Part shown: piece by piece, positions 31,555 through 43,678 of the stretch | Position numbering within the stretch: the first letter of the stretch is position 1 | How the letters are laid out: each line of letters starts with the position of its first letter | Source: Bacteroidia bacterium | GTDB taxonomy: Bacteria; Bacteroidota; Bacteroidia; JABEUT01 | Assembly (NCBI GenBank): GCA_035486275.1 | Contig: DATHNG010000165.1 | Location: forward strand, 8,686 to 72,685 | Direction of reading: 5' to 3' | DNA: 64,000 nucleotides | Notes under the pieces: model-generated | Databases searched by the model: none | What the model saw: only the letters and a program-made list of their open reading frames with translations | Told to the model about the DNA's origin: nothing | Program-made: the position numbers and the translations under genes

Positions 31555-32925
31555 ATGACAAGCATCCTTCAACTAATTGTTGACCCCGTTTCATTTCATA
31601 AGTTTTCCTTTAAAGAAAGGCAAAAACGCCGCCTTTTTATAAGTGGTAGCCTGGCCGGTTCATTATTCTGTTTGTTCTTTACAATAATTGGTGTTTTTAC
31701 AGGCCTTCGCTGGCTATCGTATTTAACAGCGGCCGATATGCTTGAGTTGTTAATTGGTATATATCTTACACATAAAGGGTTATTTAGCTTGGCAAGGCAT
31801 TTGTCCTTTAATACATCAATGTTGTTTTTCGTCAGTACTAACTATTTCTATGGAAGCGCTACGCATACTGAAATTTACTTATTCGCTTTCCCGGCTATTA
31901 TAATTTTTTTATTCGATGAAAAAAGAACGATAACTGCATATTGTGCCTATCTATTAGCGGGATTCGCAACCTGCATATATTTACAGAAGAACTTTTCAGG
32001 ACATTATGATGGAGACGTAACTCAATTGGCTAGGTATGCCTTTATGAATTATGTATTTGCTTTTTGTTTACTGGCAATAATTATATATTTTTTTAAATCG
32101 GAGAACCTGGAAAACAGCCAAAAGATAGAATTACAGAAGCAAGCCATTGAAGAAAAGAATACTGAAATAACAGCCAGTATTACGTACGCCAAACGAATAC
32201 AAGATTCTTTGCTTAGCCCAAGAGCATTATTTGATAAAAGTTTCAGCCAATATTTTCTTTTATTTAAACCTAAGGATATTGTAAGTGGAGATTTTTATTG
32301 GATGCAGCCTGTTTCAGCATCTGAATTTATTGTTGCTATAGGTGATTGTACTGGCCATGGTGTACCGGGTGCGCTTGTAAGTAGTATATGTATGGGGAAG
32401 CTTAGTGATGCTGCTATTAAAAGTAATTCTCCCGGCAAAATACTTGAAAATGTGAATAAAGAAATTAAAAGCAGTTTTGGAAATAGTGGAAATGATAATA
32501 TCAGAGACGGTATGGATATAATTCTCTGCCATCTGAACACCGCTACAAACAAAATAAGATATGCAGGTGCTAACCGTCCTTTATGGATAATAAAGAGGAG
32601 TGCTACTCCTGAAAGCGGACCAGTTGAAGTGAAGGCAGATAAAGTGTCCATTGGCGGGTTTACTGAAAACACTCAAAAATTTACAGAGCAGGAAATTAGC
32701 TTGGAAGAAGGAGATACTATTTATTTATTTACGGATGGGTTTGCCGATCAATTTGGAGGAGAGAATGGGAAGAAGATGACTACCAAACGTCTTAAAGAAT
32801 GGGTAATAAGTAATAATCATTTGCCTATTAAAGAAATTGGTGAGAAAATGAGTGCCAGTTATAACACTTGGAAAGGCAAACATGAACAGATTGACGATGT
32901 AACTGTATTGGCCATCAGGGTATGA
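31555..32925 (+). CDS. Membrane-anchored PP2C/SpoIIE-family protein phosphatase
   Basis: About 5-6 N-terminal TM helices, a coiled linker, then 'SGDFYW', 'GDCTGHGVPGA' and 'LFTDGFADQFGG'. Confidence 0.85.
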   Translation: MTSILQLIVDPVSFHKFSFKERQKRRLFISGSLAGSLFCLFFTIIGVFTGLRWLSYLTAADMLELLIGIYLTHKGLFSLARHLSFNTSMLFFVSTNYFYGSATHTEIYLFAFPAIIIFLFDEKRTITAYCAYLLAGFATCIYLQKNFSGHYDGDVTQLARYAFMNYVFAFCLLAIIIYFFKSENLENSQKIELQKQAIEEKNTEITASITYAKRIQDSLLSPRALFDKSFSQYFLLFKPKDIVSGDFYWMQPVSASEFIVAIGDCTGHGVPGALVSSICMGKLSDAAIKSNSPGKILENVNKEIKSSFGNSGNDNIRDGMDIILCHLNTATNKIRYAGANRPLWIIKRSATPESGPVEVKADKVSIGGFTENTQKFTEQEISLEEGDTIYLFTDGFADQFGGENGKKMTTKRLKEWVISNNHLPIKEIGEKMSASYNTWKGKHEQIDDVTVLAIRV

Positions 32926-33716
32926 AAAAGGAATTTATTGACCAATTAGGCCGGAAAATTAAAGTTGAATGGCCACCTAATCGAATAATATCACTGGTCC
33001 CTTCTCAAACAGAATTACTAAACTGGTTAGGGCTAAATAATGAAATTGTTGGAATAACAAAGTTTTGTGTTCACCCCAATGAATGGTTTCGCACAAAACA
33101 ACGTATTGGAGGAACCAAGAAGTTTGATTTCGATAAGATAGCCGAACTGCAGCCTGACCTGATAATAGGGAATAAGGAAGAAAATGAGGAATTGCAGATA
33201 AAACAATTAATGAAGCAATATCCGGTATGGATGAGCGATATTCATACGCTGGAGGCGGCATTTGATATGATGAAGGGTGTGGGAGAATTGGTTGATAGGG
33301 CAGATAAAGTGAATGATTTAATAAGTAAAGTAAAGATTGAATTTGCCGGACTTAATAGCTCAAAACTGCATCGCAAAAAAGCGGCGTATTTTATTTGGAA
33401 AGACCCCTTTATGGTTACCGGACACGATACTTTTTTAACAGACGTGCTGAAACAGTGTGGCTTTGTGAATGTATTTGAAGAATATGAAGGCAGGTATCCT
33501 GAAGTAACAAAAGAAGACATTCAAAAACAGTCTCCTGATGTTATACTACTTTCATCAGAACCTTACCCGTTTTCTGAAAAACATATTGATGAATTCAGGC
33601 AAATATGCCCTGCAGCAAAAATTGTGTTGGTTGACGGAGAGTATTTTTCATGGTATGGCTCACGATTACTGGACGCTCCGGCATATTTCAACAAAGTGCT
33701 GAATGAGATAGAATAA
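32922..33716 (+). CDS. BtuF/TroA-like (helical-backbone) binding protein without signal peptide
   Basis: 'RIISLVPSQTELL', 'PDLIIGNKEEN' and 'PDVILLSSEPYPF' are typical of class III substrate-binding proteins. No N-terminal hydrophobic segment. The start overlaps the phosphatase stop (ATGA). Confidence 0.6.
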   Translation: MKKEFIDQLGRKIKVEWPPNRIISLVPSQTELLNWLGLNNEIVGITKFCVHPNEWFRTKQRIGGTKKFDFDKIAELQPDLIIGNKEENEELQIKQLMKQYPVWMSDIHTLEAAFDMMKGVGELVDRADKVNDLISKVKIEFAGLNSSKLHRKKAAYFIWKDPFMVTGHDTFLTDVLKQCGFVNVFEEYEGRYPEVTKEDIQKQSPDVILLSSEPYPFSEKHIDEFRQICPAAKIVLVDGEYFSWYGSRLLDAPAYFNKVLNEIE

Positions 33717-33745
33717 TGAGTAAATTTGCTCTCTGAGAGGCTATT

Positions 33746-36064
33746 ATGGCTAAAAAATTGAAACACTCATCTCTACTTTTATTTTTTGTTTTCCTGACAA
33801 CTCTTTCGGCAAATAGCCAGAAGGTTGGACTGGTGCTTAGTGGCGGCGGCGCAAGCGGCATTGCTCACATTGGTGTAATTAAAGCGCTTGAGGAGAATCA
33901 TATTCCTATTGATTATATTACGGGAACATCAATGGGTGCTTTTATAGGTGCTTTGTATGCGGCAGGATATACACCAGAACAAATGGAGCAGTTGGTAACA
34001 TCAAGGGAATTTCTTGAACTTGCTTCAGGTGCTGTAAACAGAAAGTACGAATATTATTTCAAGCAGAACATAAGTGAAGCCTCATGGATAAACTTTCATT
34101 TTTCACTAGATACCTCTATAATTACGAGTATTCCCACTCACCTGGTATCCCCATTGCCAATTGATTTTGCTATTCTTACTTATTTCTCGAGTGCGTCTTC
34201 TGCTTCGCATGATAAGTTTGATAGCCTGTTCGTCCCTTTCAGGTGCTTGGCAGCTGATATAGCCGAAAAGAAACCATGGATATTTGATAGCGGAAACTTA
34301 GGACAGGCAGTCAGGGCATCGATTTCATACCCGTTTTACCTTAAACCAATTACAATAAATGGTAAAATGCTTTTTGACGGAGGGCTGTATAATAACTTTC
34401 CTGCTGATATAATGCAGCAAGATTTTAACCCTGATATTATTATTGGTAGTAATGTTTCAGGAAATATTCAGCCGCCGAGTGATGATAATATTCTATCGGA
34501 AATAAAGAATATGCTCATGACAAAAACAAACTATGCGTTACCGGGTAAAGGCTTGATTATATTGCCTGATGTTGAGGCTGGTATATTGAGTGCTGATAAT
34601 CCTCAGGCATTAATTGATAGTGGTTATATTTCTACACTCAGACAGATACCCGCTTTATTAAAACTTATAGACAGAAGGGAGAATGATGAAAAATTAAAGA
34701 AAAAAAGAAGTGATTTTCAAAGGAAGGAACACCCTTTAATATTCAATAAACTTAGTTTTAATGGTGTTAATGATAACCAGGAAAAATACCTAAAAAGCGT
34801 TCTATTTGATGATCACAAAGAAATGTCATTGAATGATATGGCTGTTGCTTATTTTAAAGTAGCGACTGACCAAAACATTCACAGTATATACCCAATGGCT
34901 AAGTATAACGACAGTACAGGGTACTACACACTTGATATGTCTATTAAAAGAGAAAAGCATTTCCAGGTAGGTTTCGGCGGAGTACTTTCAAATCTTCCTA
35001 TTAGTGAAGGCTATGTTGGGCTACAATACAATACGTTTGGAAGACAGGAATTACAGCTTGTTGGTAATATTTATTTTGGGAAGTTGTATACTTCGGCTTT
35101 AGGGTCAGCGAGAATTTATTTCCCGAAACTGCCTTTTTACCTGGAGCCGTCAATTACGTATAACAGTTGGAATTATTTTACAAGCAGCACCGATTTCTTT
35201 GCAGATATTACTCCCCCATACCTGATACAGTACGAAGGATTTGGGAAATTAGATATGGGATTCCCGATTGGTGGAAAATCGAAATTAATATTGGGAGGTA
35301 GTTACGCAAACATTAATAATACCTATTTCCAGGAACTATCCCATAAAACAACAGATACAGCTGATATTACAAGGTTTGGTGCAGCTACCGGGTATGCCAA
35401 GTTCGATTATAATTCACTTAATGATAAAGAATATGCAAGTACAGGAATGAGGTTTACGACGCATGCGCAATGGATTGCAGGAACTGAAACATTTTACCCC
35501 GGCACACAGGACATAAATAAAGATACTGTAGTAAAGCAACATAACTGGTTACAGATTAAAGCTTCGTTAGATTATTATCTTGTAGGACGTGGGCCGGTTA
35601 GGTTTGGTATTTATATGGAAGGGGTGTATTCTAACACATTTGTAAATGGCCATGCCCTGCAAACCTATTTTCAAAACTACTGGTCAACAACTTTAATGGC
35701 TCCTGCTTTTCAACCAACGCCGGAAATGCAAACTCTTTTTCTACCTAAATATAGGGCGTATAATTACGCAGCAGCAGGCCCAAAGATCATAATACCGTTC
35801 AAGCCAAAAATCGACCTGCGATTTGAGGGATATGTATTTCTTCCATACCAGGCTATTCAACAAAATACACTTAATAATCAGGCCGTGTATGGAGTACCAC
35901 TCGCTACTAAAGAATACGTAGGTATGGCTGCATTGGTGTATCATTCACCAATCGGGCCTGTAAGTGTCAGCCTTAATTATTTTGATAGTGACCCGCTAAA
36001 ATATTCATTTACGGTGCTTTTTCACGTAGGGTTTATAATATTTAATGAAAGGTCAATTAACTAA
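33746..36064 (+). CDS. Patatin-like phospholipase fused to a C-terminal beta-barrel domain
   Basis: Signal peptide, oxyanion 'SGGGASG', nucleophile 'GTSMGA', catalytic 'FDGG', and about 350 aa of C-terminal alternating beta-strand sequence. Confidence 0.85.
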   Translation: MAKKLKHSSLLLFFVFLTTLSANSQKVGLVLSGGGASGIAHIGVIKALEENHIPIDYITGTSMGAFIGALYAAGYTPEQMEQLVTSREFLELASGAVNRKYEYYFKQNISEASWINFHFSLDTSIITSIPTHLVSPLPIDFAILTYFSSASSASHDKFDSLFVPFRCLAADIAEKKPWIFDSGNLGQAVRASISYPFYLKPITINGKMLFDGGLYNNFPADIMQQDFNPDIIIGSNVSGNIQPPSDDNILSEIKNMLMTKTNYALPGKGLIILPDVEAGILSADNPQALIDSGYISTLRQIPALLKLIDRRENDEKLKKKRSDFQRKEHPLIFNKLSFNGVNDNQEKYLKSVLFDDHKEMSLNDMAVAYFKVATDQNIHSIYPMAKYNDSTGYYTLDMSIKREKHFQVGFGGVLSNLPISEGYVGLQYNTFGRQELQLVGNIYFGKLYTSALGSARIYFPKLPFYLEPSITYNSWNYFTSSTDFFADITPPYLIQYEGFGKLDMGFPIGGKSKLILGGSYANINNTYFQELSHKTTDTADITRFGAATGYAKFDYNSLNDKEYASTGMRFTTHAQWIAGTETFYPGTQDINKDTVVKQHNWLQIKASLDYYLVGRGPVRFGIYMEGVYSNTFVNGHALQTYFQNYWSTTLMAPAFQPTPEMQTLFLPKYRAYNYAAAGPKIIIPFKPKIDLRFEGYVFLPYQAIQQNTLNNQAVYGVPLATKEYVGMAALVYHSPIGPVSVSLNYFDSDPLKYSFTVLFHVGFIIFNERSIN

Positions 36065-36081
36065 GAACGATTGTTAATTAT

Positions 36082-36999
36082 ATGAGCAGAGTAATTAAAG
36101 CACACCTTGCCCTGCTTGGAGTAAATGCAATTTATGGCGCCAACTTTACAATTGTTAAGGCTGTTGTACCTGAGCACATTCAACCTTTTGCACTGGTAGT
36201 TATCAGGGCGACATGCTCTATGCTTTTATTTTGGCTATCGAGCCTTTTTCTTCCTAAAGAAAAAATAGAGCGTAAAGATTATATTAAACTCCTACTGCTC
36301 GGCGTATTTGGAGTAGCCTTGAATCAACTTCTCTTCATTAAAGGGCTTGCTATGAGCACCCCTATTAATGGCGCTATTATAATGATCTTCAACCCGATAA
36401 TTGTAATGTTACTTGAGGTTATATTTTTTAAAGAGAAAACCCCATTCATACGTGTTGCAGGTATTTTAGTAGGAATTACAGGTGCCTTGGTATTATTGCT
36501 GGGCAGAAGGGATGCAGCTACTGCATCAGCATCTTTTACAGGCGATATGTTAATATTGGTTAACTGTATATCATGGGCTATATATATGGTAATGGTGAAG
36601 CCATTGATGTTGAAATATAAAACCGTAACGGTTGTAAAATGGGTATTTTCTTTCGGCGCGTTTTATGTGCTTCCGTTTGGCTGGTCGCAATTGCAAGCAT
36701 TCGATTTTCGTTCCATAAGTTTAAATTCGTGGATGTGTATTGCTTATGTAGTAATAGCAAGCACATATATAGCCTATTATTTAAATACCTATGCTTTAGC
36801 CGAACTTAGCCCTTCAATAGCAAGTACTTACATTTATCTTCAACCGGTAATTGCAGCCGCTATAGCTGTTTATTATGGGCAGGATAAAATTAACGTAATG
36901 AAGGTTTTGTCAGCTATTTTCATTATAGTAGGCATTTACTTAGTGGGCTTAAGCCGTAAGAAAGAGAAGCAGAAATTGAATGCACAAATTTCTAAGTAG
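36082..36999 (+). CDS. DMT-superfamily (EamA) transporter
   Basis: 10-TM pattern with two EamA-like halves. Confidence 0.8.
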   Translation: MSRVIKAHLALLGVNAIYGANFTIVKAVVPEHIQPFALVVIRATCSMLLFWLSSLFLPKEKIERKDYIKLLLLGVFGVALNQLLFIKGLAMSTPINGAIIMIFNPIIVMLLEVIFFKEKTPFIRVAGILVGITGALVLLLGRRDAATASASFTGDMLILVNCISWAIYMVMVKPLMLKYKTVTVVKWVFSFGAFYVLPFGWSQLQAFDFRSISLNSWMCIAYVVIASTYIAYYLNTYALAELSPSIASTYIYLQPVIAAAIAVYYGQDKINVMKVLSAIFIIVGIYLVGLSRKKEKQKLNAQISK

Positions 37000-37030
37000 G
37001 TTAAGAGTAGCTAAATCAGCCGCCTATTAC

Positions 37031-37038
37031 TATATTTG
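37031..37038 (+). promoter_or_regulatory. -7 box TATATTTG upstream of yicC-gmk
   Basis: Perfect motif, 14 nt before ATG 37053. Confidence 0.4.
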
Positions 37039-37052
37039 AAAAAAAATAGCCG

Positions 37053-37919
37053 ATGTTACAATCAATGACAGGCTTTGGCAAAGTGTCAGGGCAAATAGGT
37101 GGAAAGACGATAGATGTTGAATTGCGCTCGCTGAACAGCAAGCAGCTTGATCTTAATATGCGCTTACCGTATCAATATTACACACTTGAACCGGAAATAC
37201 GTGCATTGTTACCCGGTTTACTAGACAGAGGCAAAGTAGATCTTCATATTAATATGTCCGGTTCGGAAGGCAAGAGCAAGGTTGCCTTGAATAAAACCCT
37301 TGCCAAACAATACCTGGCAGAACTTAAGGGGTTAGCGAAGGAGATAAATGAAAAGAATGTGCAATACCTTCCCCTTATATTACGTGCACCTGATATATTC
37401 AGAACTGAGGAGAAAGTAGATAAGAAGGAGCTGGAATATGTTTTTTCGTTAATAAAGAAAGCGGCCGTTTCTGTCAGTAAATTCAGGCAGCAGGAAGGTA
37501 AGGCATTAAGAAAAGATATTGAGTTACACCTGGCAGTTATTGAAGGTAATGAGAAGAAGATAGATAAACTGGACCCGATCAGGCTTAGCAAACTTAAAGA
37601 AAGACTGGCTAACAAATTGGTGGAAGGAATTGGAGGACGAGTGACCGATATGAATAGGTTTGAGCAGGAGATCATATACTATATAGAGAAACTGGATATT
37701 AATGAAGAGAAAGCCAGGCTTCGTGCGCATTGCAGTTATTTCAGAAAAACAATGGATGAACCTAATGGAGGAAGAAAGCTTGGTTTTATAGTGCAGGAAA
37801 TTGGCAGAGAAATAAACACTATCGGGTCTAAGGCAAATGATGCGGATATACAAAGGTTTGTAGTGGAAATGAAGGATGAACTTGAAAAAATAAAAGAGCA
37901 GCTTCTGAATATTCTATGA
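37053..37919 (+). CDS. YicC/YloC-family endoribonuclease
   Basis: 'MLQSMTGFG' start and C-terminal 'EIGREINTIGSKAND'. Overlaps gmk by 4 nt, as in many bacteria. Confidence 0.85.
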   Translation: MLQSMTGFGKVSGQIGGKTIDVELRSLNSKQLDLNMRLPYQYYTLEPEIRALLPGLLDRGKVDLHINMSGSEGKSKVALNKTLAKQYLAELKGLAKEINEKNVQYLPLILRAPDIFRTEEKVDKKELEYVFSLIKKAAVSVSKFRQQEGKALRKDIELHLAVIEGNEKKIDKLDPIRLSKLKERLANKLVEGIGGRVTDMNRFEQEIIYYIEKLDINEEKARLRAHCSYFRKTMDEPNGGRKLGFIVQEIGREINTIGSKANDADIQRFVVEMKDELEKIKEQLLNIL

Positions 37920-38494
37920 GTCAATTTTCCGGAAAACTGGTTATTGTTGCCGGCCCGTCCGGTACAGGAAAGACAACTATTGTAAGGCATTTACTGGGTG
38001 TTTTTCCACGACTGGCTTTTTCCATATCGGCATGTAGCAGGCCCGCCCGTAAAAACGAAATGGATGGTGAGGATTATTATTTTCTTTCCCTTGAACAATT
38101 TCGTGAAAAGATAGATAAAGGTGAGTTTTTAGAATGGGAAGAGGTTTACCCGGGTAGCTATTATGGTACACTTAAAACCGAAGTAGAAAGGTTATGGAAA
38201 GCTGGCCGACATGTTATTTTCGATATAGATGTAAAGGGCGCACTTAACCTGAAGAAGTACTTCCCCAAGGAATCGATTACTATTTTTATAGAGCCACCAT
38301 CCGTTAAAGCATTGGAGCAAAGGCTAAGAGACAGGAATACAGAAACACCAGAGATACTGGAACAACGTGTAAGTAAGGCGAAAGAAGAATTGATGTATGT
38401 AGATAAATTTGAGAAAGTGGTACAAAACATTGAATTACAGAAGGCTTTATTGGATACTGAAGCCATAGTCAGGAATTTTTTAGGAGATAACTAG
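37916..38494 (+). CDS. gmk: Guanylate kinase
   Basis: P-loop 'GPSGTGKTT', 'EWEEVYPGSYYGT'. Confidence 0.93.
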   Translation: MSQFSGKLVIVAGPSGTGKTTIVRHLLGVFPRLAFSISACSRPARKNEMDGEDYYFLSLEQFREKIDKGEFLEWEEVYPGSYYGTLKTEVERLWKAGRHVIFDIDVKGALNLKKYFPKESITIFIEPPSVKALEQRLRDRNTETPEILEQRVSKAKEELMYVDKFEKVVQNIELQKALLDTEAIVRNFLGDN

Positions 38495-38496
38495 AA

Positions 38497-38949
38497 ATGC
38501 TGTCGAAGAAAACAAAATATGCCATTAAGGCGCTTGTTGCACTTGCCAAAAGCGATAAGTCAATGACTATTTCTGAAATAGCTGCGCAGGAAAGTATTCC
38601 TAAGAAGTTTCTGGAGAGTATATTATTAGACATGCGTAAACAAGGGTTGCTTGGTAGTAAGATAGGAATAGGTGGAGGATATCATTTAATTAAAAAGCCT
38701 AAAGACATAGTTCTTACTCAATTGTTAAGGTCCATTGATGGGCCAATTGCCATGATACCTTGTGTGAGTCTGAACTTTTATGAGCCATGTGAGGATTGTG
38801 TAGACGAGGTAACCTGTGGAATACGAAGTGCATTTATAGAAGTGCGCGATGCCAGCCTTAAAATACTGGCAGGGATAACATTGGAAGATATTCTGAAACG
38901 GGAAGAGCATCTTAAAGTCCTGAAAAAGAGGAAGAAACAGCAGGAGTAA
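38497..38949 (+). CDS. Rrf2-family transcriptional regulator with Cys cluster
   Basis: 'MLSKKTKYAIKALVALA' wHTH and Cys residues in 'CVSLNFYEPCEDCVDEVTC'. Confidence 0.85.
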   Translation: MLSKKTKYAIKALVALAKSDKSMTISEIAAQESIPKKFLESILLDMRKQGLLGSKIGIGGGYHLIKKPKDIVLTQLLRSIDGPIAMIPCVSLNFYEPCEDCVDEVTCGIRSAFIEVRDASLKILAGITLEDILKREEHLKVLKKRKKQQE

Positions 38950-38991
38950 AAAATTTTATTCTTAATATCTACTAAATTGATAGATATTATA

Positions 38992-38999
38992 TATATTTG
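38992..38999 (+). promoter_or_regulatory. -7 box TATATTTG upstream of the DUF4395-like gene
   Basis: Perfect motif, 22 nt before ATG 39022. Confidence 0.4.
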
Positions 39000-39021
39000 T
39001 GCCCTCAAACAAAAAATAAGT

Positions 39022-39498
39022 ATGAATAACACGTCCGTAACATGCCCTGTATCAATAAACCGAATTAATGAAAGCGTAGCCAGGGTGGCGGCTTTCTTTA
39101 CAATTGTAATTACCATCATTGGGGTGTATTTTAAATCTCCATACATAATTGCAGGCCTGGCAATTGATTTTTATTTGAGGGCATTTACATCAGGAAAGTA
39201 CAGCCCTTTAAAAGCTATAGCAAAAACTGTTGCATCGTACATTGGCTTGCCATGGAAACAAACAGACGCAGCGCCTAAAAAGTTTGCAGCTGCAGTTGGC
39301 TTTGTATTTACAGTTGCAATTGCCACATTACTTTTCCTGAACTATGATGTACTTGCCTATATAGTAACCGGTGTATTATTGATATGTGCAGCACTTGAAA
39401 GCTTTGCCGGATACTGTGTAGGATGTGTTGTATATACATATGCTATTCGCCCTTTTTTAAATGAAGAAACAGAAGAACCAATAATTATAAACCTTTAA
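39022..39498 (+). CDS. Small integral membrane protein (DUF4395-like)
   Basis: Four predicted TM helices and 'CPVSINRINESVARV'. ATG 39022 was chosen because a perfect -7 box (38992-38999) lies inside the longer track ORF. Confidence 0.45.
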   Translation: MNNTSVTCPVSINRINESVARVAAFFTIVITIIGVYFKSPYIIAGLAIDFYLRAFTSGKYSPLKAIAKTVASYIGLPWKQTDAAPKKFAAAVGFVFTVAIATLLFLNYDVLAYIVTGVLLICAALESFAGYCVGCVVYTYAIRPFLNEETEEPIIINL

Positions 39499-39512
39499 AT
39501 TTAAATTACACA

Positions 39513-40148
39513 ATGGCATTAAGACTCGGAGACATTGCGCCTGATTTTACAGCGCAAACTACGCAAGGTACAATTAACTTCCACGAATGGCTGGGAGACA
39601 AATGGGGAGTGTTATTCTCTCATCCTGCTGATTTTACACCTGTCTGCACTACTGAATTAGGTAGGGTGGCAAAGCTAAAGCCTGAATTTGATAAGCGCAA
39701 CGTTAAGGTTATAGCATTGAGTGTTGACCCTATTCAATCGCATGAGGCATGGGTGCAGGACATTAACGAAACCCAAAAGACAACGGTTAACTTCCCTATC
39801 ATTGCTGATCCTGATTTTAAGGTTGCAAAACTGTATGATGCTATTCACCCGGAAGTATCAGATAAGTTCACCGTTCGTTCGGTATATGTTATATCGCCCG
39901 ATAAGAAGATCAAGCTGACCATCACATACCCTGCATCAACAGGTAGAAATTTTGATGAGATACTTCGCGTGATCGATTCATTGCAACTAACCGCTAACTA
40001 TAGTGTTGCCACACCGGCAGACTGGAAATATGGCGAAGATGTTGTAGTTGCGCCTGCTATTAAAACAGAAGATATTGCGGCCAAATTCCCTAAGGGGCAT
40101 AAGGTTATTAAGCCTTACCTGCGCACAACACCGCAACCAAATTTGTAA
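39513..40148 (+). CDS. 1-Cys peroxiredoxin (Prx6 type)
   Basis: 'HPADFTPVCTTELG' peroxidatic Cys motif; 211 aa. Confidence 0.92.
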   Translation: MALRLGDIAPDFTAQTTQGTINFHEWLGDKWGVLFSHPADFTPVCTTELGRVAKLKPEFDKRNVKVIALSVDPIQSHEAWVQDINETQKTTVNFPIIADPDFKVAKLYDAIHPEVSDKFTVRSVYVISPDKKIKLTITYPASTGRNFDEILRVIDSLQLTANYSVATPADWKYGEDVVVAPAIKTEDIAAKFPKGHKVIKPYLRTTPQPNL

Positions 40149-40172
40149 CATAGTTTTGGGGGAGTTTATGTG

Positions 40173-40210
40173 AGACACAGTATGCTTAATTGCTACTGTG
40201 TCTTTTTTTA
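40173..40210 (+). terminator. Rho-independent terminator after peroxiredoxin
   Basis: agacacagta-(11 nt)-tactgtgtct: perfect 10-bp stem followed by T7. Confidence 0.8.
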
Positions 40211-40528
40211 TTCTTTTTTCTGCATTTGTTACCCGTCTTTATATTGTTAATCAGTATGTTTAGGGGTAACACTGTAACCCGTCTTTTGTTGTTATTACTA
40301 TTTCCCAAAACCACAATACAATGCCAAAAGTATTTCTCAGGAATTAATTATTTACAATACAAATTTCAGCAATTTGTGCCTACTATAAAATAAAATGTTT
40401 ACTATTTATCAACAGGCCATATTCCTACTCAATCTTAACCTAAAATCTCAATATGGGTTCATTGATAAATACAATGAAATACAATTAGACATTTTAAGTT
40501 AATTTAGTTTGTAATTAATTGATTATAA

Positions 40529-40549
40529 TATATTTGTATGTTATTTTTG
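40529..40549 (+). promoter_or_regulatory. Two tandem -7 boxes (TATATTTG, TATTTTTG) inside the AT-rich islet leader
   Basis: Perfect motifs at 40529-40536 and 40542-40549, about 260 nt upstream of islet gene A. AT-rich DNA raises the chance expectation. Confidence 0.3.
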
Positions 40550-40810
40550 TTGCGTGTCAAAAAAAGGCTAATAACTGGCAAGTTTTAGAAAAAGAATGAC
40601 AATATTGTGGCTTTAAACAACTGAGGAAACGTCAAAACGCATTTAAGTACTTATTTATGTATCTTATTGCACGTTCTTGTATTTAAATGAAAAATATTTC
40701 TTATGTTGTGTATGTAAACTCATCAATTGATAATTTAAAAGTACTATTTAGAAAAACTCACTATGCATCAAATTTTATTGTGCCGTTGTTGTAGAGACAA
40801 CAATGATTGG

Positions 40811-41317
40811 ATGAAATATTTAATTCCACTTATTGGTTTCATTTTGGCTGGGGTATTTGCATTATTGAAAATCAAATCAAATACTGTTTCTGCTTCTAGA
40901 ATTAAATGGATTCTTGAGATTACCGAAGCGTTGAGCGAGTATTTGGTTTCCATAAGTAAAGGATTATTAGATTATCAGAATTATAAGATAGATTATCAGA
41001 AAGATGAGTTGGATTTTAGGACGAAAAGAGAAAGTTATCGTAGATTCACTTTGTCAATAAATAAATCTATAAGATTGGGATACAAAATACAGTTGTATCT
41101 CAATTCAAAAAATAAGTTGCAAAATAATCTTGAAATGGCAATAATGGAAATTAATCATATAATACAAGAGATTTTTGACAATGATTTATCACATATTGAG
41201 AAAATTGATGAATACAGAACAATGATTGATAATAAACTGTACACTATTGTGTCTATTTCAAAAGAGGTTATTGAAGAAGAAAGAATAAAATCGAAAAGAC
41301 TAATAGATCTTGATTGA
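40811..41317 (+). CDS. Hypothetical single-pass membrane protein with helical cytosolic domain (AT-rich islet gene A)
   Basis: ATG 40811 gives 'MKYLIPLIGFILAGVFALLKIK', followed by Lys/Glu/Ile-rich helical sequence. No family recognised. The alternative start at 40763 adds 'MHQILLCRCCRDNNDW'. Confidence 0.5.
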   Translation: MKYLIPLIGFILAGVFALLKIKSNTVSASRIKWILEITEALSEYLVSISKGLLDYQNYKIDYQKDELDFRTKRESYRRFTLSINKSIRLGYKIQLYLNSKNKLQNNLEMAIMEINHIIQEIFDNDLSHIEKIDEYRTMIDNKLYTIVSISKEVIEEERIKSKRLIDLD

Positions 41318-41367
41318 AGGTTGTATCAAGCTATTGCTAATATAGATTACATATAACTGACTGGAGC

Positions 41368-41952
41368 ATGAAAATTAATTTGAATATTAGAAAAATAGCT
41401 AGGTGGCTTGCAACTTTTTTTATTGCTTGGCTTGGGAAAAAAATACTTGATGCTACAGGAATATTTGAGAATGTTACCGTATTTCTTTCAAAAATGTATA
41501 CGAAGAATGAAGTGATAGGATATTTAAACAAAGAATATCCTATTTGGAAAATTCTTTTTGGGGCTACCCTTCTTTTGATTGGTTACTGGTTGACAAGTTT
41601 AATTTTTCGGCTACTCTTTGGCAAACAAAATAAATATAATAAGAAGAGAGAGCAATTAAAAAAATGGAATAAACAGGAAATGGGTGGTATTTTATGGAAG
41701 TGGGATGTAGAATTTGATGATTCAGGCAGGCCTTTTATTTCTAATTTGCAGCCCTATTGCATTAGCCACGGAGAGCCTCCGCTGAAAATGTCTCTTGGAG
41801 GGTTTTTGGGCGCCGCTGGTGATTATGTTTGTCCTATACCGGGATGTCGAAGCGGTGTATCACTAAATTCTTATCAGCTAAACAGTATTCAAAAAGCAAG
41901 ACAATATATAGAATCACACTTAGAAAGTACTTGGGAGAAAATAAACAAATAA
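41368..41952 (+). CDS. Hypothetical membrane protein with C-terminal Cys/His domain (AT-rich islet gene B)
   Basis: A strong TM helix at residues ~59-84, a basic linker, then 'ILWKWDVEFDDSGRPFISNLQPYCISHGEPP...YVCPIPGC'. No family recognised. Confidence 0.5.
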   Translation: MKINLNIRKIARWLATFFIAWLGKKILDATGIFENVTVFLSKMYTKNEVIGYLNKEYPIWKILFGATLLLIGYWLTSLIFRLLFGKQNKYNKKREQLKKWNKQEMGGILWKWDVEFDDSGRPFISNLQPYCISHGEPPLKMSLGGFLGAAGDYVCPIPGCRSGVSLNSYQLNSIQKARQYIESHLESTWEKINK

Positions 41953-41994
41953 AATAATTGTTTTTAAGTATTACTTATATTGTCTATGTAGTTT

Positions 41995-43236
41995 TTACCT
42001 CACCTCTCCATCCACAATCACCGTCCCAATCAAATTACTACCAAAAGAGTAAGGTATAAAGCTGTAACTTGGTATGGCTTGGGTGATAAACAGGTTCGCT
42101 TTCTTTCCAATGGTAATTGTCCCATGTGTTTTATCCAGGCCCATTGCATAAGCAGAGTTGACAGTAGCTGCATTTATAGCTTCCTCGGGTAGCATTTTCA
42201 TTTTCACACAAGCCAGGGAAAGTATAAAGGCCATTCTGCCTGAAGGAGATGAGCCAGGGTTATAATCTGTCGCTAATGCAATTGGTAAACCGGCATCTAT
42301 CATTTTACGTGCAGGCGGGTAATGTAAGCCTAAGAAGAAGGCTGTGCTTGGCAATAGGGTAGGCATGGTTTTTGATTTCAGCAGGCAATCTATTTCGGCA
42401 TCTCCGGTAAATTCAAGGTGGTCCACTGATAGGGCATTGTTCTTTACTCCCACTTGTATTCCCCCTGAATAATCTAATTCATTGGCATGTATCTTTGGCT
42501 GTAAGCCATATTTCAAGCCTGCCTGCAAAATAGCATCGGTTTCTTCAATGGTGTAAAAACCACGGTCGCAGAACACGTCGCAATAATCAGCCAGTTTTTC
42601 TTTCGCAATGACAGGTAACATTTCTTTAATAATAAGGTCAATATATTCCTGCCTGTTTTGCTTGTATTTAGTAGGCATGGCATGTGCGCCCAAAAAATTA
42701 GCCTTGATGGTTAAAGGAGAATGTTCTTTCAGTTTTTTAATAACCCGCAACATCTTTAACTCCCCATCAACCGATAATCCGTAGCCGCTTTTTATCTCCA
42801 CCCCACCTGTGCCATACTTTGTAATTTCGTTCAGGCGGTGCATAGCGCTATCAAAAAGTTCATCCTCCGATGTTTTGTTCAGTCGCTCTGCAGAGTTCAA
42901 TATACCACCACCATTGCGGGCAATTTCTTCGTAGCTCAATCCTTTAATGCGGTCAACAAACTCACCTTCACGGCTGCCTGCATATACAATATGCGTATGC
43001 GAATCGCACCACGATGGAAAAACAAATTTACCCTTAGCATCTATAACTTTATCGAAACCTGCTTTAGCCGGGATGCCATCTTTCATTTCACCCATGCCTG
43101 AGATCAGACCATTTTCAGTACTTAGCCATGCGTTATGAATACAGGGTAGGGCGCTCATTTCCTTGCCCGATACTTTTTCCTGTGGCCTTGGATTTGCTCC
43201 AACTATTGTCTTTATATTTTCAATAAGTATTTTCAT
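41995..43236 (-). CDS. hutI: Imidazolonepropionase
   Basis: 'WCDSHTHIVYAGSR', 'LGAHAMP', 'KIHANELD', 'SVDHLE', 'ALATDYNPGSSP'. Confidence 0.92.
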   Translation of the reverse strand: MKILIENIKTIVGANPRPQEKVSGKEMSALPCIHNAWLSTENGLISGMGEMKDGIPAKAGFDKVIDAKGKFVFPSWCDSHTHIVYAGSREGEFVDRIKGLSYEEIARNGGGILNSAERLNKTSEDELFDSAMHRLNEITKYGTGGVEIKSGYGLSVDGELKMLRVIKKLKEHSPLTIKANFLGAHAMPTKYKQNRQEYIDLIIKEMLPVIAKEKLADYCDVFCDRGFYTIEETDAILQAGLKYGLQPKIHANELDYSGGIQVGVKNNALSVDHLEFTGDAEIDCLLKSKTMPTLLPSTAFFLGLHYPPARKMIDAGLPIALATDYNPGSSPSGRMAFILSLACVKMKMLPEEAINAATVNSAYAMGLDKTHGTITIGKKANLFITQAIPSYSFIPYSFGSNLIGTVIVDGEVR

Positions 43237-43249: not shown

Positions 43250-43377
43250 AGATAAAAGCTATAATGGAACGCGGATGACGCGGATCTGGCGGATTAAATG
43301 AGACTATCCCTTGTCGATGTATAATAAAACATGATTTAACAGGCTCAGTATAACTTTAAGGAGATGCCACTGGCAAA

Positions 43378-43509
43378 GATTCCTCACTCCGTTCGGAATG
43401 ACAGGCAGGCTTTTTTACCTGGTGGGAAGTATGGCGACAGGCGAAGCCTGTCGCCATACTTCCCATGAAAATTAAATAATAATTGTCATTCCGAACGGAG
43501 TGAGGAATC
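43378..43509. repeat. Perfect 26-bp inverted repeat (IR2) gattcctcactccgttcggaatgaca / tgtcattccgaacggagtgaggaatc
   Basis: Arms at 43378-43403 and 43484-43509. IR3 sits in the middle. Confidence 0.85.
43424..43464. repeat. Perfect 19-bp stem, 3-nt loop hairpin (IR3) gggaagtatggcgacaggc-gaa-gcctgtcgccatacttccc
   Basis: Read directly; nested within IR2. Confidence 0.85.
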
Positions 43510-43515
43510 TCAATC

Positions 43516-43591
43516 TCTGCCCCAAACCCCTAAAGGGGCTTAAGAAAATACACTATATTGTATTGAAGCCCCTTTAGGGGTTTGGGGCAGA
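43516..43591. repeat. Perfect 26-bp inverted repeat (IR4) tctgccccaaacccctaaaggggctt / aagcccctttaggggtttggggcaga with 24-nt spacer
   Basis: Arms at 43516-43541 and 43566-43591. Each arm contains its own cccc-taaa-gggg mini-hairpin. Confidence 0.85.
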
Positions 43592-43678
43592 ATCCATCAC
43601 CTGTATTGATCCGTCGAATCAGCGTCACCTGCGTTCTATAAGCTAAAATTCGCTAAAATTGCATGAGAGAAAAAGAAA

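What the first reader, a model, noticed from the sequence alone, without database searches (positions are those of the whole stretch)
40211..41994. AT-rich ~1.8 kb islet between peroxiredoxin and hutI carrying a two-gene cassette of unrecognisable membrane-anchored proteins
Housekeeping genes bracket this block: a 1-Cys peroxiredoxin ending with a strong terminator at 40173-40210, and hutI converging at 41995.

Composition drops sharply inside it. My hand counts give 13 G+C in 40441-40500, 13 in 41101-41160 and 18 in 41581-41640. The neighbouring peroxiredoxin line 39541-39600 has 27.

The block holds about 600 bp without a credible ORF, then two same-strand ORFs 50 nt apart (40811-41317 and 41368-41952). 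Both start with hydrophobic helices and continue as soluble domains that match no family I know.

No integrase, transposase, tRNA or convincing long terminal repeat is present, so this looks like an old or minimal insertion rather than an active element. Compact, compositionally foreign, membrane-anchored two-gene cassettes are a common architecture for abortive-infection, phage-exclusion or toxin-immunity modules. That functional reading is inference only.
Basis: partly seen in the sequence, partly recalled or inferred. Interest (0 to 1): 0.7.

Follow-up and report, generated by a model that had tools for sequence, protein, structure and literature searches.

The report
Acquired islet with defence-island membrane zinc-ribbon gene
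A 1.8 kb AT-rich piece of foreign DNA sits between two housekeeping genes of a Bacteroidia genome; one of its two genes belongs to a rare, uncharacterised family of membrane-anchored zinc-binding proteins that elsewhere sit among anti-phage genes, and the other has no detectable relative.

Summary
Window 40211-41994 has 29.4% G+C against 38.9% for the rest, the lowest value in the window. It holds a 600-nt ORF-free leader and two same-strand genes. The closest relative, MAG JABCZY01 (flanks 91-96% identical), has the prx terminator directly followed by the hutI stop codon. The block is therefore a clean presence/absence difference, and there is no integrase, tRNA or long repeat.

Gene B (41368-41952) is real. 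It has about 70 distant relatives of 160-210 aa: a transmembrane helix, a basic linker, then a conserved CxxH...CxxxxC domain. The AlphaFold model (pLDDT 90) has no significant fold match. The family matches nothing in Pfam, PADLOC, PHROGs, NCBIfam or PDB.

B homologues lie inside a type I R-M operon, between AbiL and Kiwa on an Emticicia conjugative plasmid, and next to AbiJ/Abi_alpha, PIN/LmuB-like and TIR genes.

Gene A (40811-41317) is an orphan: an N-terminal membrane anchor plus a soluble region of unknown fold.

Best reading: a horizontally acquired islet whose B gene is a candidate new anti-phage family. The function is untested.

The parts
40173..40210 (+). prx intrinsic terminator: a 10-bp perfect stem, an 11-nt loop and a T run. 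It is the left boundary of the islet. In the relative L003 the same hairpin is followed directly by the hutI stop codon, where it serves as a shared bidirectional terminator.
   Evidence: (I23)
40211..41994 (.). The islet: 1784 nt at 29.4% G+C, present here and absent from the closest relative. TTTTTA occurs at both edges, which could be microhomology or a target duplication, but it is low-complexity sequence.
40221..40276 (+). Second stable hairpin at the left end of the islet. It overlaps two copies of the 14-mer TGTWACCCGTCTTT (40227-40240 and 40273-40286). Its role is unknown; it could be an insulating terminator or a relic of the donor context.
   Evidence: (D1)
40211..40810 (+). ORF-free leader at 27% G+C with no coding frame, no Rfam family and no detectable pseudogene remnant.
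40508..40536 (+). Candidate Bacteroidota-type promoter, TTTG-N17-TATATTTG. A second TAnnTTTG lies at 40542-40549. This is a consensus match only, and the motif is not enriched in the window.
   Evidence: the promoter consensus is from my own knowledge of Bacteroides promoters, so this is inference
40811..41317 (+). Gene A, 168 aa (alternative start 40763, 184 aa). It has an N-terminal TM anchor at residues 3-21, followed by a K/E/I/L-rich soluble region of about 145 aa whose fold was not modelled. It is an orphan with no homologue found.
41368..41952 (+). Gene B, 194 aa, a member of an unnamed family of about 70 clusters. It has a weak hydrophobic helix at about residues 10-25, a TM helix at about 60-85 (nt 41545-41622) and a basic linker. 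The C-terminal domain (residues about 100-194, nt 41665-41949) holds the conserved residues C131 (41758-41760), H134 (41767-41769), C155 (41830-41832) and C160 (41845-41847).
41995..43236 (-). hutI-like amidohydrolase, the right flank, converging on B with a 42-nt gap and no hairpin between them. Its last 12 codons (about 41998-42033) diverge strongly from L003.

Best explanation
The block is a small horizontally acquired accessory islet, inserted exactly between the prx terminator and the hutI stop codon in one lineage of an uncultured Bacteroidia species. This part is shown.

Its conserved cargo is gene B. B belongs to a rare, fast-diverging family seen so far only in Bacteroidota. Members are about 180 aa. 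They are anchored in the inner membrane by a strong TM helix, and a weaker N-terminal hydrophobic helix may make it a hairpin. A lysine/arginine-rich linker follows the TM helix. The C-terminal domain has a beta-sheet, a Cys-His-Cys-Cys site and a terminal helix. The architecture is shown; zinc binding and cytoplasmic orientation are inferred from the motif and the positive-inside rule.

Family members recur inside defence islands and mobile elements, tightly spaced with ever-changing neighbours: HEPN-like, Abi_alpha, PIN, BRCT and R-M subunits. B is therefore most likely a self-contained anti-phage or anti-mobile-element protein. My proposed mechanism is inference only. The cytoplasmic zinc domain recognises a phage-derived protein or nucleic acid. 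The membrane anchor then either perturbs the membrane (abortive infection or exclusion) or localises and controls a neighbouring effector.

Gene A is a lineage-specific membrane-anchored orphan, probably co-transcribed with B from the AT-rich leader. It may be a local partner or just a passenger. It is not a conserved component.
For: Insertion:
- L003 (hutI 95%, prx 100%, priA 99% aa identity; flanks 91-96% nt identity) has 62 nt between prx and hutI. The terminator there is directly followed by the hutI stop codon.
- G+C is 29.4% against 38.9%.
- Neither A nor B is found in 80 related hutI loci.

B is a real family:
- 70 representatives at E<=1e-3 and 24 at E<=1e-10, almost all 160-218 aa plus five shorter, apparently truncated sequences.
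- H134 and C160 are invariant; C131, C155 and S183 are at least 90% conserved.
- The AlphaFold model built with the family alignment has pLDDT 90.3.

Defence and mobile-element context:
- P0010 lies between HsdS and DUF4357/HD/HsdR of a type I R-M operon, beside a D5/PriCT primase.
- On the Emticicia conjugative plasmid pEMTOL01 the order is AbiLi (2.6e-101), AbiLii, a HEPN-like ORF overlapping the B homologue by 8 nt, three hypothetical ORFs and two small ones, then KwaB/KwaA.
- L089 has AbiJ/Abi_C upstream, Abi_alpha 38 nt downstream and a tyrosine integrase.
- L087 has PIN_4 90 nt downstream, an LmuB-like gene (3.7e-17) and an IS1595 transposase.
- L088 has a TIR/SpbK-like gene (3.4e-16) and IS1595.
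- L094 has a BRCT gene 3 nt downstream, in a small islet between housekeeping genes.
- Most 90% clusters are singletons, as expected for fast-evolving accessory genes.
Against: - No experiment and no homology to any tested defence protein: PADLOC is empty for all 54 aligned members.
- Only 9 loci have useful context. About 5 of them carry recognised defence genes within about 5 kb. That is suggestive but not a statistical defence score.
- Three contexts show no defence gene at all: L085, L083 and the window itself.
- No fold match was found, so no biochemical activity can be assigned.
- Insertion against deletion rests on a single relative with the same junction. L004 and L006 have different gene content at this spot.
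- A's reality rests only on ORF length and codon statistics. The three other assemblies of the cassette whose DNA could be compared or that encode it carry no informative polymorphism.
Confidence: 0.5

Rival explanations
1. A and B form an obligate two-component module, such as toxin-immunity, toxin-antitoxin or a two-gene abortive-infection system.
For: - A and B are on the same strand with a 50-nt gap and no terminator between them.
- Both are membrane-anchored.
- They arrived together in one islet.
- B homologues are often tightly coupled to a neighbour: an 8-nt overlap with a HEPN-like ORF, 3 nt to BRCT and 38 nt to Abi_alpha. B may therefore generally work with a variable partner.
Against: - A has no homologue in 5.8 billion proteins by word-index search, in plasmids or in PDB.
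- No A-like ORF lies near any of 13 fetched B-homologue contigs, representing 10 distinct loci, even with filters off.
- The neighbours of B homologues are unrelated to each other, and several B homologues have no co-directional neighbour within 100 nt on one side.
Confidence: 0.15
2. B is not an immunity gene. It is a membrane-tethered zinc-finger protein with some other accessory role, for example a regulatory or anti-sigma-like factor, an envelope stress factor or a maintenance function of mobile elements. On this view it merely accumulates in the same variable 'junkyard' regions as defence genes.
For: - Several contexts are mobile-element or variable regions without assigned defence genes: an HTH_3 gene plus small ORFs in L083, an island of hypotheticals in L085, and IS1595 in L087 and L088.
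- In L094 and in the window it sits between housekeeping genes.
- No enzymatic or pore-forming signature was found.
Against: - Being embedded between hsdS and hsdR of a type I R-M operon, and lying between AbiL and Kiwa, are highly specific defence contexts.
- The ZAS anti-sigma signature (an N-terminal HxxxCxxC before the TM helix) is absent. Here the Cys/His site lies C-terminal to the TM helix, and no sigma factor gene is adjacent.
- No HTH or other DNA-binding domain was found.
Confidence: 0.25
3. The islet is ancestral at this junction and was deleted in the L003 lineage, rather than inserted here.
For: - Only one relative shares the prx-hutI junction, so polarity is not fixed by an outgroup.
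- The short TTTTTA motif at both edges could equally mediate a deletion.
Against: - G+C is 9.5 points below the genome fragment, and A's codon usage is the least host-like.
- The B family is patchy, rare and linked to mobile elements.
- The empty site in L003 is a functional, compact bidirectional terminator arrangement.
- Even if this rival is true, it changes the history only and not the nature of the cargo.
Confidence: 0.08
4. One or both ORFs are non-coding chance ORFs in AT-rich DNA.
For: A has no homologues and there is no sequence variation among assemblies to test for purifying selection.
Against: - AT-rich DNA is rich in stop codons. A stop-free run of at least 168 codons arose in 1 of 1000 shuffles, and here there are two such ORFs.
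- Both show a strong frame-specific codon signal.
- B has 70 homologous clusters with conserved Cys/His residues.
Confidence: 0.02

Closest known systems
Single-gene membrane-anchored abortive-infection or superinfection-exclusion proteins, and genes embedded in type I R-M loci (from my own knowledge: lactococcal Abi proteins, Sie/Imm-type exclusion proteins, PrrC/RloC-type R-M-embedded genes)
   Same: - Small size and membrane anchoring.
- Low G+C and patchy distribution with rapid divergence.
- Location in defence islands, on plasmids and inside an hsdS-hsdR interval.
   Different: - No sequence or structure similarity to any of them: PADLOC, Pfam, PHROGs, PDB and BFVD are all negative.
- No phage-borne copies were found.
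- No phenotype is known.
Zinc-ribbon / treble-clef small zinc-binding domains
   Same: Four conserved ligands in a CxxH...CxxxxC arrangement on short beta-strands or loops, nearly invariant across 54 sequences.
   Different: - The ligand spacing and the surrounding three-stranded sheet plus C-terminal helix gave no significant fold match.
- The best hit is PUR-alpha repeats at E 0.33, probability 0.3.
- Metal binding is inferred and not shown.
Kiwa KwaA, Zorya ZorB and other TM-containing defence components
   Same: Defence-island membrane proteins thought to sense infection at the envelope. A B homologue lies about 3.9 kb from kwaB-kwaA.
   Different: No homology: a single family member gives a spurious ZorB hit at 0.0036. 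B is much smaller and has a cytoplasmic Cys/His domain.
Classical genomic islands and integrative elements
   Same: Compositional deviation, presence/absence between close relatives and an intergenic insertion site.
   Different: - Only 1.8 kb.
- No integrase, transposase, tRNA target or long flanking repeats (neighbouring gene content).

Membership tests
Horizontally acquired genomic islet | Absent from a closely related genome at an otherwise conserved junction | tested here: met
   L003 has the prx terminator directly followed by the hutI stop codon. About 30 nt in L003 correspond to about 1814 nt in the window, and the flanks are 91-96% identical.
Horizontally acquired genomic islet | Composition deviates from the host | tested here: met
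   29.4% against 38.9% G+C, the window minimum and about 5.9 SD below the mean. A's in-frame codon score is 0.011, against 0.21-0.27 for host genes.
Horizontally acquired genomic islet | Mobility machinery or signatures (integrase/transposase, tRNA target, terminal repeats) | tested here: not met
   No tRNA. No convincing direct or inverted terminal repeats, only TTTTTA at both edges. The flanking genes are housekeeping.
Known anti-phage defence systems (PADLOC-DB 2.0.0) | Significant match of a component to a system HMM | tested here: not met
   A and B give 0 families at E<=1. The 54 B-family members give only scattered single-member hits.
Defence-island-associated gene family (guilt by association) | Homologues recurrently neighbour known defence genes | tested here: met
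   For B: type I R-M-embedded; AbiL and Kiwa; AbiJ and Abi_alpha; LmuB-like and PIN; TIR/SpbK-like. The sample is small, about 5 of 9 informative loci, with no background model.
Two-gene toxin-antitoxin / toxin-immunity / Abi cassette | The two genes co-occur as a conserved pair in other genomes | tested here: not met
   No A homologue anywhere. None lies near 13 fetched B-homologue contigs, representing 10 distinct loci. Limit: A was not searched with full-sensitivity HMMER or by structure.
Two-gene toxin-antitoxin / toxin-immunity / Abi cassette | Operon organisation (same strand, short gap, no internal terminator) | tested here: met
   50-nt gap with no terminator-like site between A and B.
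Zinc-ribbon-type metal-binding domain | Four conserved Cys/His ligands in two knuckles | tested here: met
   C131 and C155 are at least 90% conserved; H134 and C160 are invariant in 54 sequences.
Zinc-ribbon-type metal-binding domain | Fold match to a solved zinc ribbon, or demonstrated metal binding | tested here: inconclusive
   The model has pLDDT 90.3, but no Foldseek hit at E<=1e-3 in PDB or BFVD.
Zinc-binding anti-sigma factors (ZAS) | N-terminal cytoplasmic HxxxCxxC domain preceding the TM helix, with an adjacent ECF sigma gene | tested here: not met
   The Cys/His site lies C-terminal to the TM helix with a different spacing. No sigma factor gene is adjacent in the window or in the fetched loci. 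The ZAS definition is from my own knowledge.
Phage or prophage gene | Homologues in phage genomes or viral contigs | tested here: not met
   tblastn against 50,697 phage records gave none. The IMG/VR pattern scan gave none. blastn of the islet against phages gave none. BFVD gave no structural match.

The most novel reading that the evidence does not exclude
The B family is a new Bacteroidota-specific anti-phage module. It would be a membrane-tethered Cys-His-Cys-Cys sensor or adaptor with a previously unseen fold. It would act alone or plug into interchangeable neighbouring effectors: HEPN-like, PIN, Abi_alpha, BRCT, R-M subunits, or the orphan membrane protein A in this window.
Probability: 0.25. 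Interest if true: 0.65.

Novelty: new variant of a known kind. Interest (0 to 1): 0.45.

Why it matters
Defence systems of Bacteroidota are much less explored than those of Proteobacteria and Firmicutes.

This is a compact protein of about 180 aa with a confidently predicted fold that matches nothing solved. It recurs inside a type I R-M operon and between AbiL and Kiwa. That makes it a cheap and well-defined candidate to test.

If it protects against phages, it would add a new membrane-associated sensing principle. The four conserved Cys/His residues give immediate mutational handles.

If it does not, the locus is still a clean natural example of a minimal, machinery-free insertion at a bidirectional terminator between housekeeping genes.

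Tried and rejected
**Profile libraries.** Pfam, PADLOC, PHROGs and NCBIfam gave nothing for A or B. Pfam and PADLOC gave nothing consistent for all 54 family members.

**Word-index homology search.** It returned only self-hits for A and B and only three proteins with the family profile. The full HMMER scan was needed to see the B family. Its single job went to B, so A was never searched at full sensitivity.

**The search for related loci with the family alignments.**
- A1 and A2 were too divergent for metagenome patterns.
- The IMG/VR scan found no relative.
- The one metagenome scan, with subfamily alignment A3, returned a single 1.2-kb contig.

**dN/dS from strain variants.** L001 and L002 are 100% identical across the cassette. 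The 45 differences in L002 lie at or beyond its left contig end, upstream of prx.

**Structure.**
- The single-sequence model of B was mediocre (pLDDT 69.5). The alignment-based model was good, but Foldseek found nothing significant in PDB or BFVD.
- Recurrent weak PUR-alpha hits are kept only as a lead.

**Sequence searches against PDB.** Only noise.

**The 600-nt leader.** No Rfam family, no sigma-70 enrichment or terminator, no similarity to plasmids or phages, and no pseudogene remnant relative to ORFs of B-homologue loci (noise only).

**Small upstream ORFs.** The 42-aa ORFs called upstream of three B homologues are unrelated to each other.

**Literature.** The accession WP_015026264 appears in no held paper. 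A keyword search gave nothing specific.

**hutI C-terminus as a recombination scar.** Rejected, because the same 12 residues are equally variable in L004.
Full report

Yes, at the stated coordinates.

- The segment 40211-41994 has 29.4% G+C against 38.9% for the rest of the 64-kb window.
- A sliding window of the same length reaches its global minimum at 40201. The value lies about 5.9 SD below the non-overlapping windows, which have mean 0.388, sd 0.016 and minimum 0.360.
- The left edge is the prx terminator, a perfect 10-bp stem at 40173-40182/40194-40203 followed by a T run.
- The right edge is the hutI stop codon at 41995-41997.
- The flanks are a 1-Cys peroxiredoxin (AhpC-TSA 1.7e-33 plus 1-cysPrx_C) and an amidohydrolase of imidazolonepropionase type. 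PriA, an amidase and an RF-1-domain gene lie beyond.
- There is no tRNA in 30000-52000, no Rfam family and no convincing terminal repeat.

**2. Are the ORFs genes?**

- The first 600 nt (40211-40810) have no coding signal in any frame.
- A (40811-41317, 168 aa; other assemblies call the 40763 start, giving 184 aa) and B (41368-41952, 194 aa) each show a clear frame-specific codon signal.
- A's in-frame score is the least host-like, +0.011 bits per codon against 0.21-0.27 for neighbouring genes.
- A stop-free run of at least 168 codons appeared in 1 of 1000 shuffles of the islet, and the islet has two such runs.
- A has one N-terminal TM helix (residues 3-21). The rest is a K/E/I/L-rich soluble region whose fold was not modelled.
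- B has a weakly hydrophobic helix (about residues 10-25), a strong TM helix (about 60-85), a very basic linker and a soluble C-terminal domain.

**3. Is it an insertion?**

A genome scan with HutI returned 80 related loci.

- The closest is MAG JABCZY01 (L003). Its protein identities to the window are HutI 95%, Prx 100%, PriA 99%, Rrf2 99% and Gmk 97%.
- L003 keeps the order priA-hutI-prx-DUF4395-rrf2-gmk-yicC, but has only 62 nt between prx and hutI.
- The same terminator hairpin is followed immediately by the hutI stop codon. About 30 nt of L003 correspond to about 1814 nt of the window.
- The DNA just outside the islet is 91-96% identical on both sides.
- The breakpoints fall in T runs. 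TTTTTA is present at both islet edges and once in L003. This could be microhomology or a target duplication, but it is low-complexity and proves nothing.
- Only L003 shares this junction. L004 (HutI 86%) has two other small ORFs between hutI and gmk, and L006 has rrf2 next to hutI. The spot is therefore variable, and polarity rests on composition plus the nature of the cargo.
- None of the 80 loci contains an A or B relative.
- The same cassette is found on contigs from three other samples (JGI, ENA and Logan). Both contigs whose DNA could be fetched are 100% identical to the window across it. No polymorphism is available.

**4. What are the proteins?**

*Library and homology searches.*

- Neither protein hits Pfam, PADLOC, PHROGs or NCBIfam, nor PDB by sequence.
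- The word-index search of 5.8 billion proteins found only the proteins themselves.
- A full HMMER scan of 1.84 billion cluster representatives with B found 70 proteins at E<=1e-3 and 24 at E<=1e-10. Almost all are 160-218 aa, plus five shorter, apparently truncated sequences. They match over most of their length.

*The B family.*

- The alignment of 54 members has three N-terminal subtypes and a common C-terminal domain.
- The consensus of that domain is LxKWxVxFD...PxIxxLxPYCxKH..P.KM...C....C.N...IES.L...W.
- H134 and C160 are invariant. C131, C155 and S183 are at least 90% conserved. This is a Cys-x2-His ... Cys-x4-Cys site.
- With the family alignment, AlphaFold gives pLDDT 90.3. The model has helices to residue 98, three longer strands (102-105, 108-116, 122-131), short strands around the Cys/His site and a terminal helix 173-193.
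- Foldseek found no hit at E<=1e-3 in PDB or BFVD. The best hits are PUR-alpha repeats at E 0.33, which I keep only as a lead.
- No family member matches any Pfam or PADLOC model consistently.
- Most 90%-identity clusters are singletons.

*Protein A.* A remains an orphan. There is no hit in plasmids. There is no relative among the ORFs of any fetched locus, even with HMMER filters off.

**5. Where do B homologues live?**

Contexts were recovered for a dozen homologues.

| Locus (homologue) | Context |
|---|---|
| JGI 3300059473 contig (P0010) | Inside a type I R-M operon, HsdM-HsdS-[B]-DUF4357-HD-HsdR, next to PriCT/D5 primase genes |
| Emticicia oligotrophica conjugative plasmid pEMTOL01 (WP_015026264.1) | AbiLi (2.6e-101), AbiLii, a 182-aa ORF with an RNYLAH (Rx4H) motif and sub-threshold HEPN hits that overlaps the B homologue by 8 nt, the B homologue, three hypothetical ORFs and two small ones, then KwaB-KwaA |
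| L089 (P0006) | AbiJ_NTD4/Abi_C divergently upstream, Abi_alpha 38 nt downstream, tyrosine integrase nearby |
| L087 (P0016) | PIN_4 protein 90 nt downstream, then a weak NOV_C-like ORF and an LmuB-like ORF (3.7e-17); IS1595 transposase |
| L088 (P0025) | IS1595 transposase adjacent; TIR/SpbK-like protein (3.4e-16) about 3 kb away |
| L094/L095 (P0008) | Small low-GC patch between gatCAB and a DEAD-box helicase, with a BRCT protein 3 nt downstream |
| L083 (P0064) | Preceded by an XRE-type HTH gene |
| L084 (P0003) | Surrounded by unannotated ORFs |
| L085 (P0004) | Surrounded by unannotated ORFs |
| L090-L092 (P0014) | Surrounded by unannotated ORFs |

- All taxonomic markers seen point to Bacteroidota: SusC, T9SS sorting tails, Arm-DNA-bind_5 integrases, Emticicia and a Marinilabiliales MAG.
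- No copy was found in phage genomes, IMG/VR or BFVD.

**6. Interpretation.**

- Shown: a compositionally foreign 1.8-kb insertion-type polymorphism without mobility genes.
- Shown: B belongs to a rare, divergent family seen only in Bacteroidota contexts, with a membrane anchor and a conserved four-ligand Cys/His domain.
- Shown: family members recur in defence islands and mobile elements, with neighbours that differ each time.
- Inferred: the C-terminal domain is cytoplasmic (positive-inside rule) and binds zinc.
- Inferred: the family has an anti-phage or anti-mobile-element role. This is guilt by association from about 5 of 9 informative loci, including the very specific hsdS-hsdR and AbiL-Kiwa settings.
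- Speculative: the cytoplasmic domain senses an invader molecule, and the anchor either perturbs the membrane or positions a neighbouring effector.
- A is probably co-transcribed with B (50-nt gap, no terminator). A lineage-specific partnership is not excluded.

**7. Comparison with known systems.**

- It works like, at most, small membrane-anchored Abi or exclusion proteins and R-M-embedded accessory defence genes.
- It is not a member of any family in PADLOC, Pfam, PHROGs, NCBIfam, PDB or BFVD.
- It lacks the defining features of ZAS anti-sigma factors and of classical integrative islands. See the membership table.

**8. Verdict.**

- The novelty lies in the B family: an uncharacterised candidate defence gene with an unmatched predicted fold. 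The islet as such is an ordinary kind of accessory insertion.
- Interest is moderate at 0.45. Candidate defence families are numerous and nothing here is tested. This one is small, well delimited, has clear mutational targets and comes from an under-studied phylum.

Noticed in passing
window 43276-43595 (hutI-priA intergenic region): About 320 nt cannot be aligned with L003, although both flanks are 91-92% identical. In the window the segment is built of nested perfect palindromes. One pair has 24-nt arms, TGTCATTCCGAACGGAGTGAGGAA, at 43380-43403(-) and 43484-43507(+), enclosing a hairpin at 43423-43466. A second pair has 20-nt arms, CCCCAAACCCCTAAAGGGGC, at 43520-43539 and 43568-43587. The Rfam 'miRNA' hits there are sub-threshold hairpin artefacts. 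It looks like a REP- or MITE-like palindromic insert, a second variable spot 1.3 kb from the islet.
   Followed up: partly
window 40221-40286: A second stable hairpin lies immediately after the prx terminator, inside the islet. Folding 40160-40300 gives z = -5.6 against shuffles. It overlaps two copies of the 14-mer TGTWACCCGTCTTT spaced 46 nt apart. With up to 2 mismatches the 14-mer has 4 matches in the window against 0.8 expected. Its function is unknown.
   Followed up: partly
window 32215-40214 compared with L003: Identity to the closest relative is mosaic. It is 70-83% nt from 32215 to 37814 (yicC and leftwards), then jumps to 91-96% from 37815 to the islet edge (gmk-rrf2-DUF4395-prx). 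It is about 91-92% to the right of the islet. This suggests recombination, or MAG mosaicism, around this locus.
   Followed up: no
L004 9317-10131 (JBKQUY010000067, hutI-gmk junction): In the next-closest relative the rrf2-DUF4395-prx block is missing. Two other ORFs, of 173 aa and 80 aa, occupy the space between hutI and gmk. From memory the 173-aa one resembles ORF6N/KilA-N-type proteins; this was not tested. The hutI 3' junction is therefore a recurrent site of gene turnover.
   Followed up: no
window 41953-41994: In L003, hutI and prx share one bidirectional terminator hairpin. In the window, hutI now converges on B with a 42-nt spacer that has no hairpin, so read-through in both directions is possible.
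   Followed up: no
L086 8415-8963 (Emticicia plasmid pEMTOL01, WP_015026265.1): A 182-aa ORF overlaps the B homologue by 8 nt. It carries an RNYLAH (Rx4H) motif and several sub-threshold HEPN-family hits: RiboL-PSP 4.7e-4, HepT-like and DUF4145. It is probably an unannotated HEPN RNase paired with the B homologue.
   Followed up: partly
L084 1772-2065: The 97-aa ORF called upstream of the closest B homologue (P0003) is a run of 7-residue repeats (MTADIRI...). This is tandem-repeat DNA rather than an obvious gene.
   Followed up: no
L087 5643-5912(-) and L088 5821-5949(+): Small ORFs next to two different B homologues share an LRLIHVI.Y motif, and both loci carry an IS1595-family transposase just upstream. 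The two loci may derive from the same type of element.
   Followed up: no
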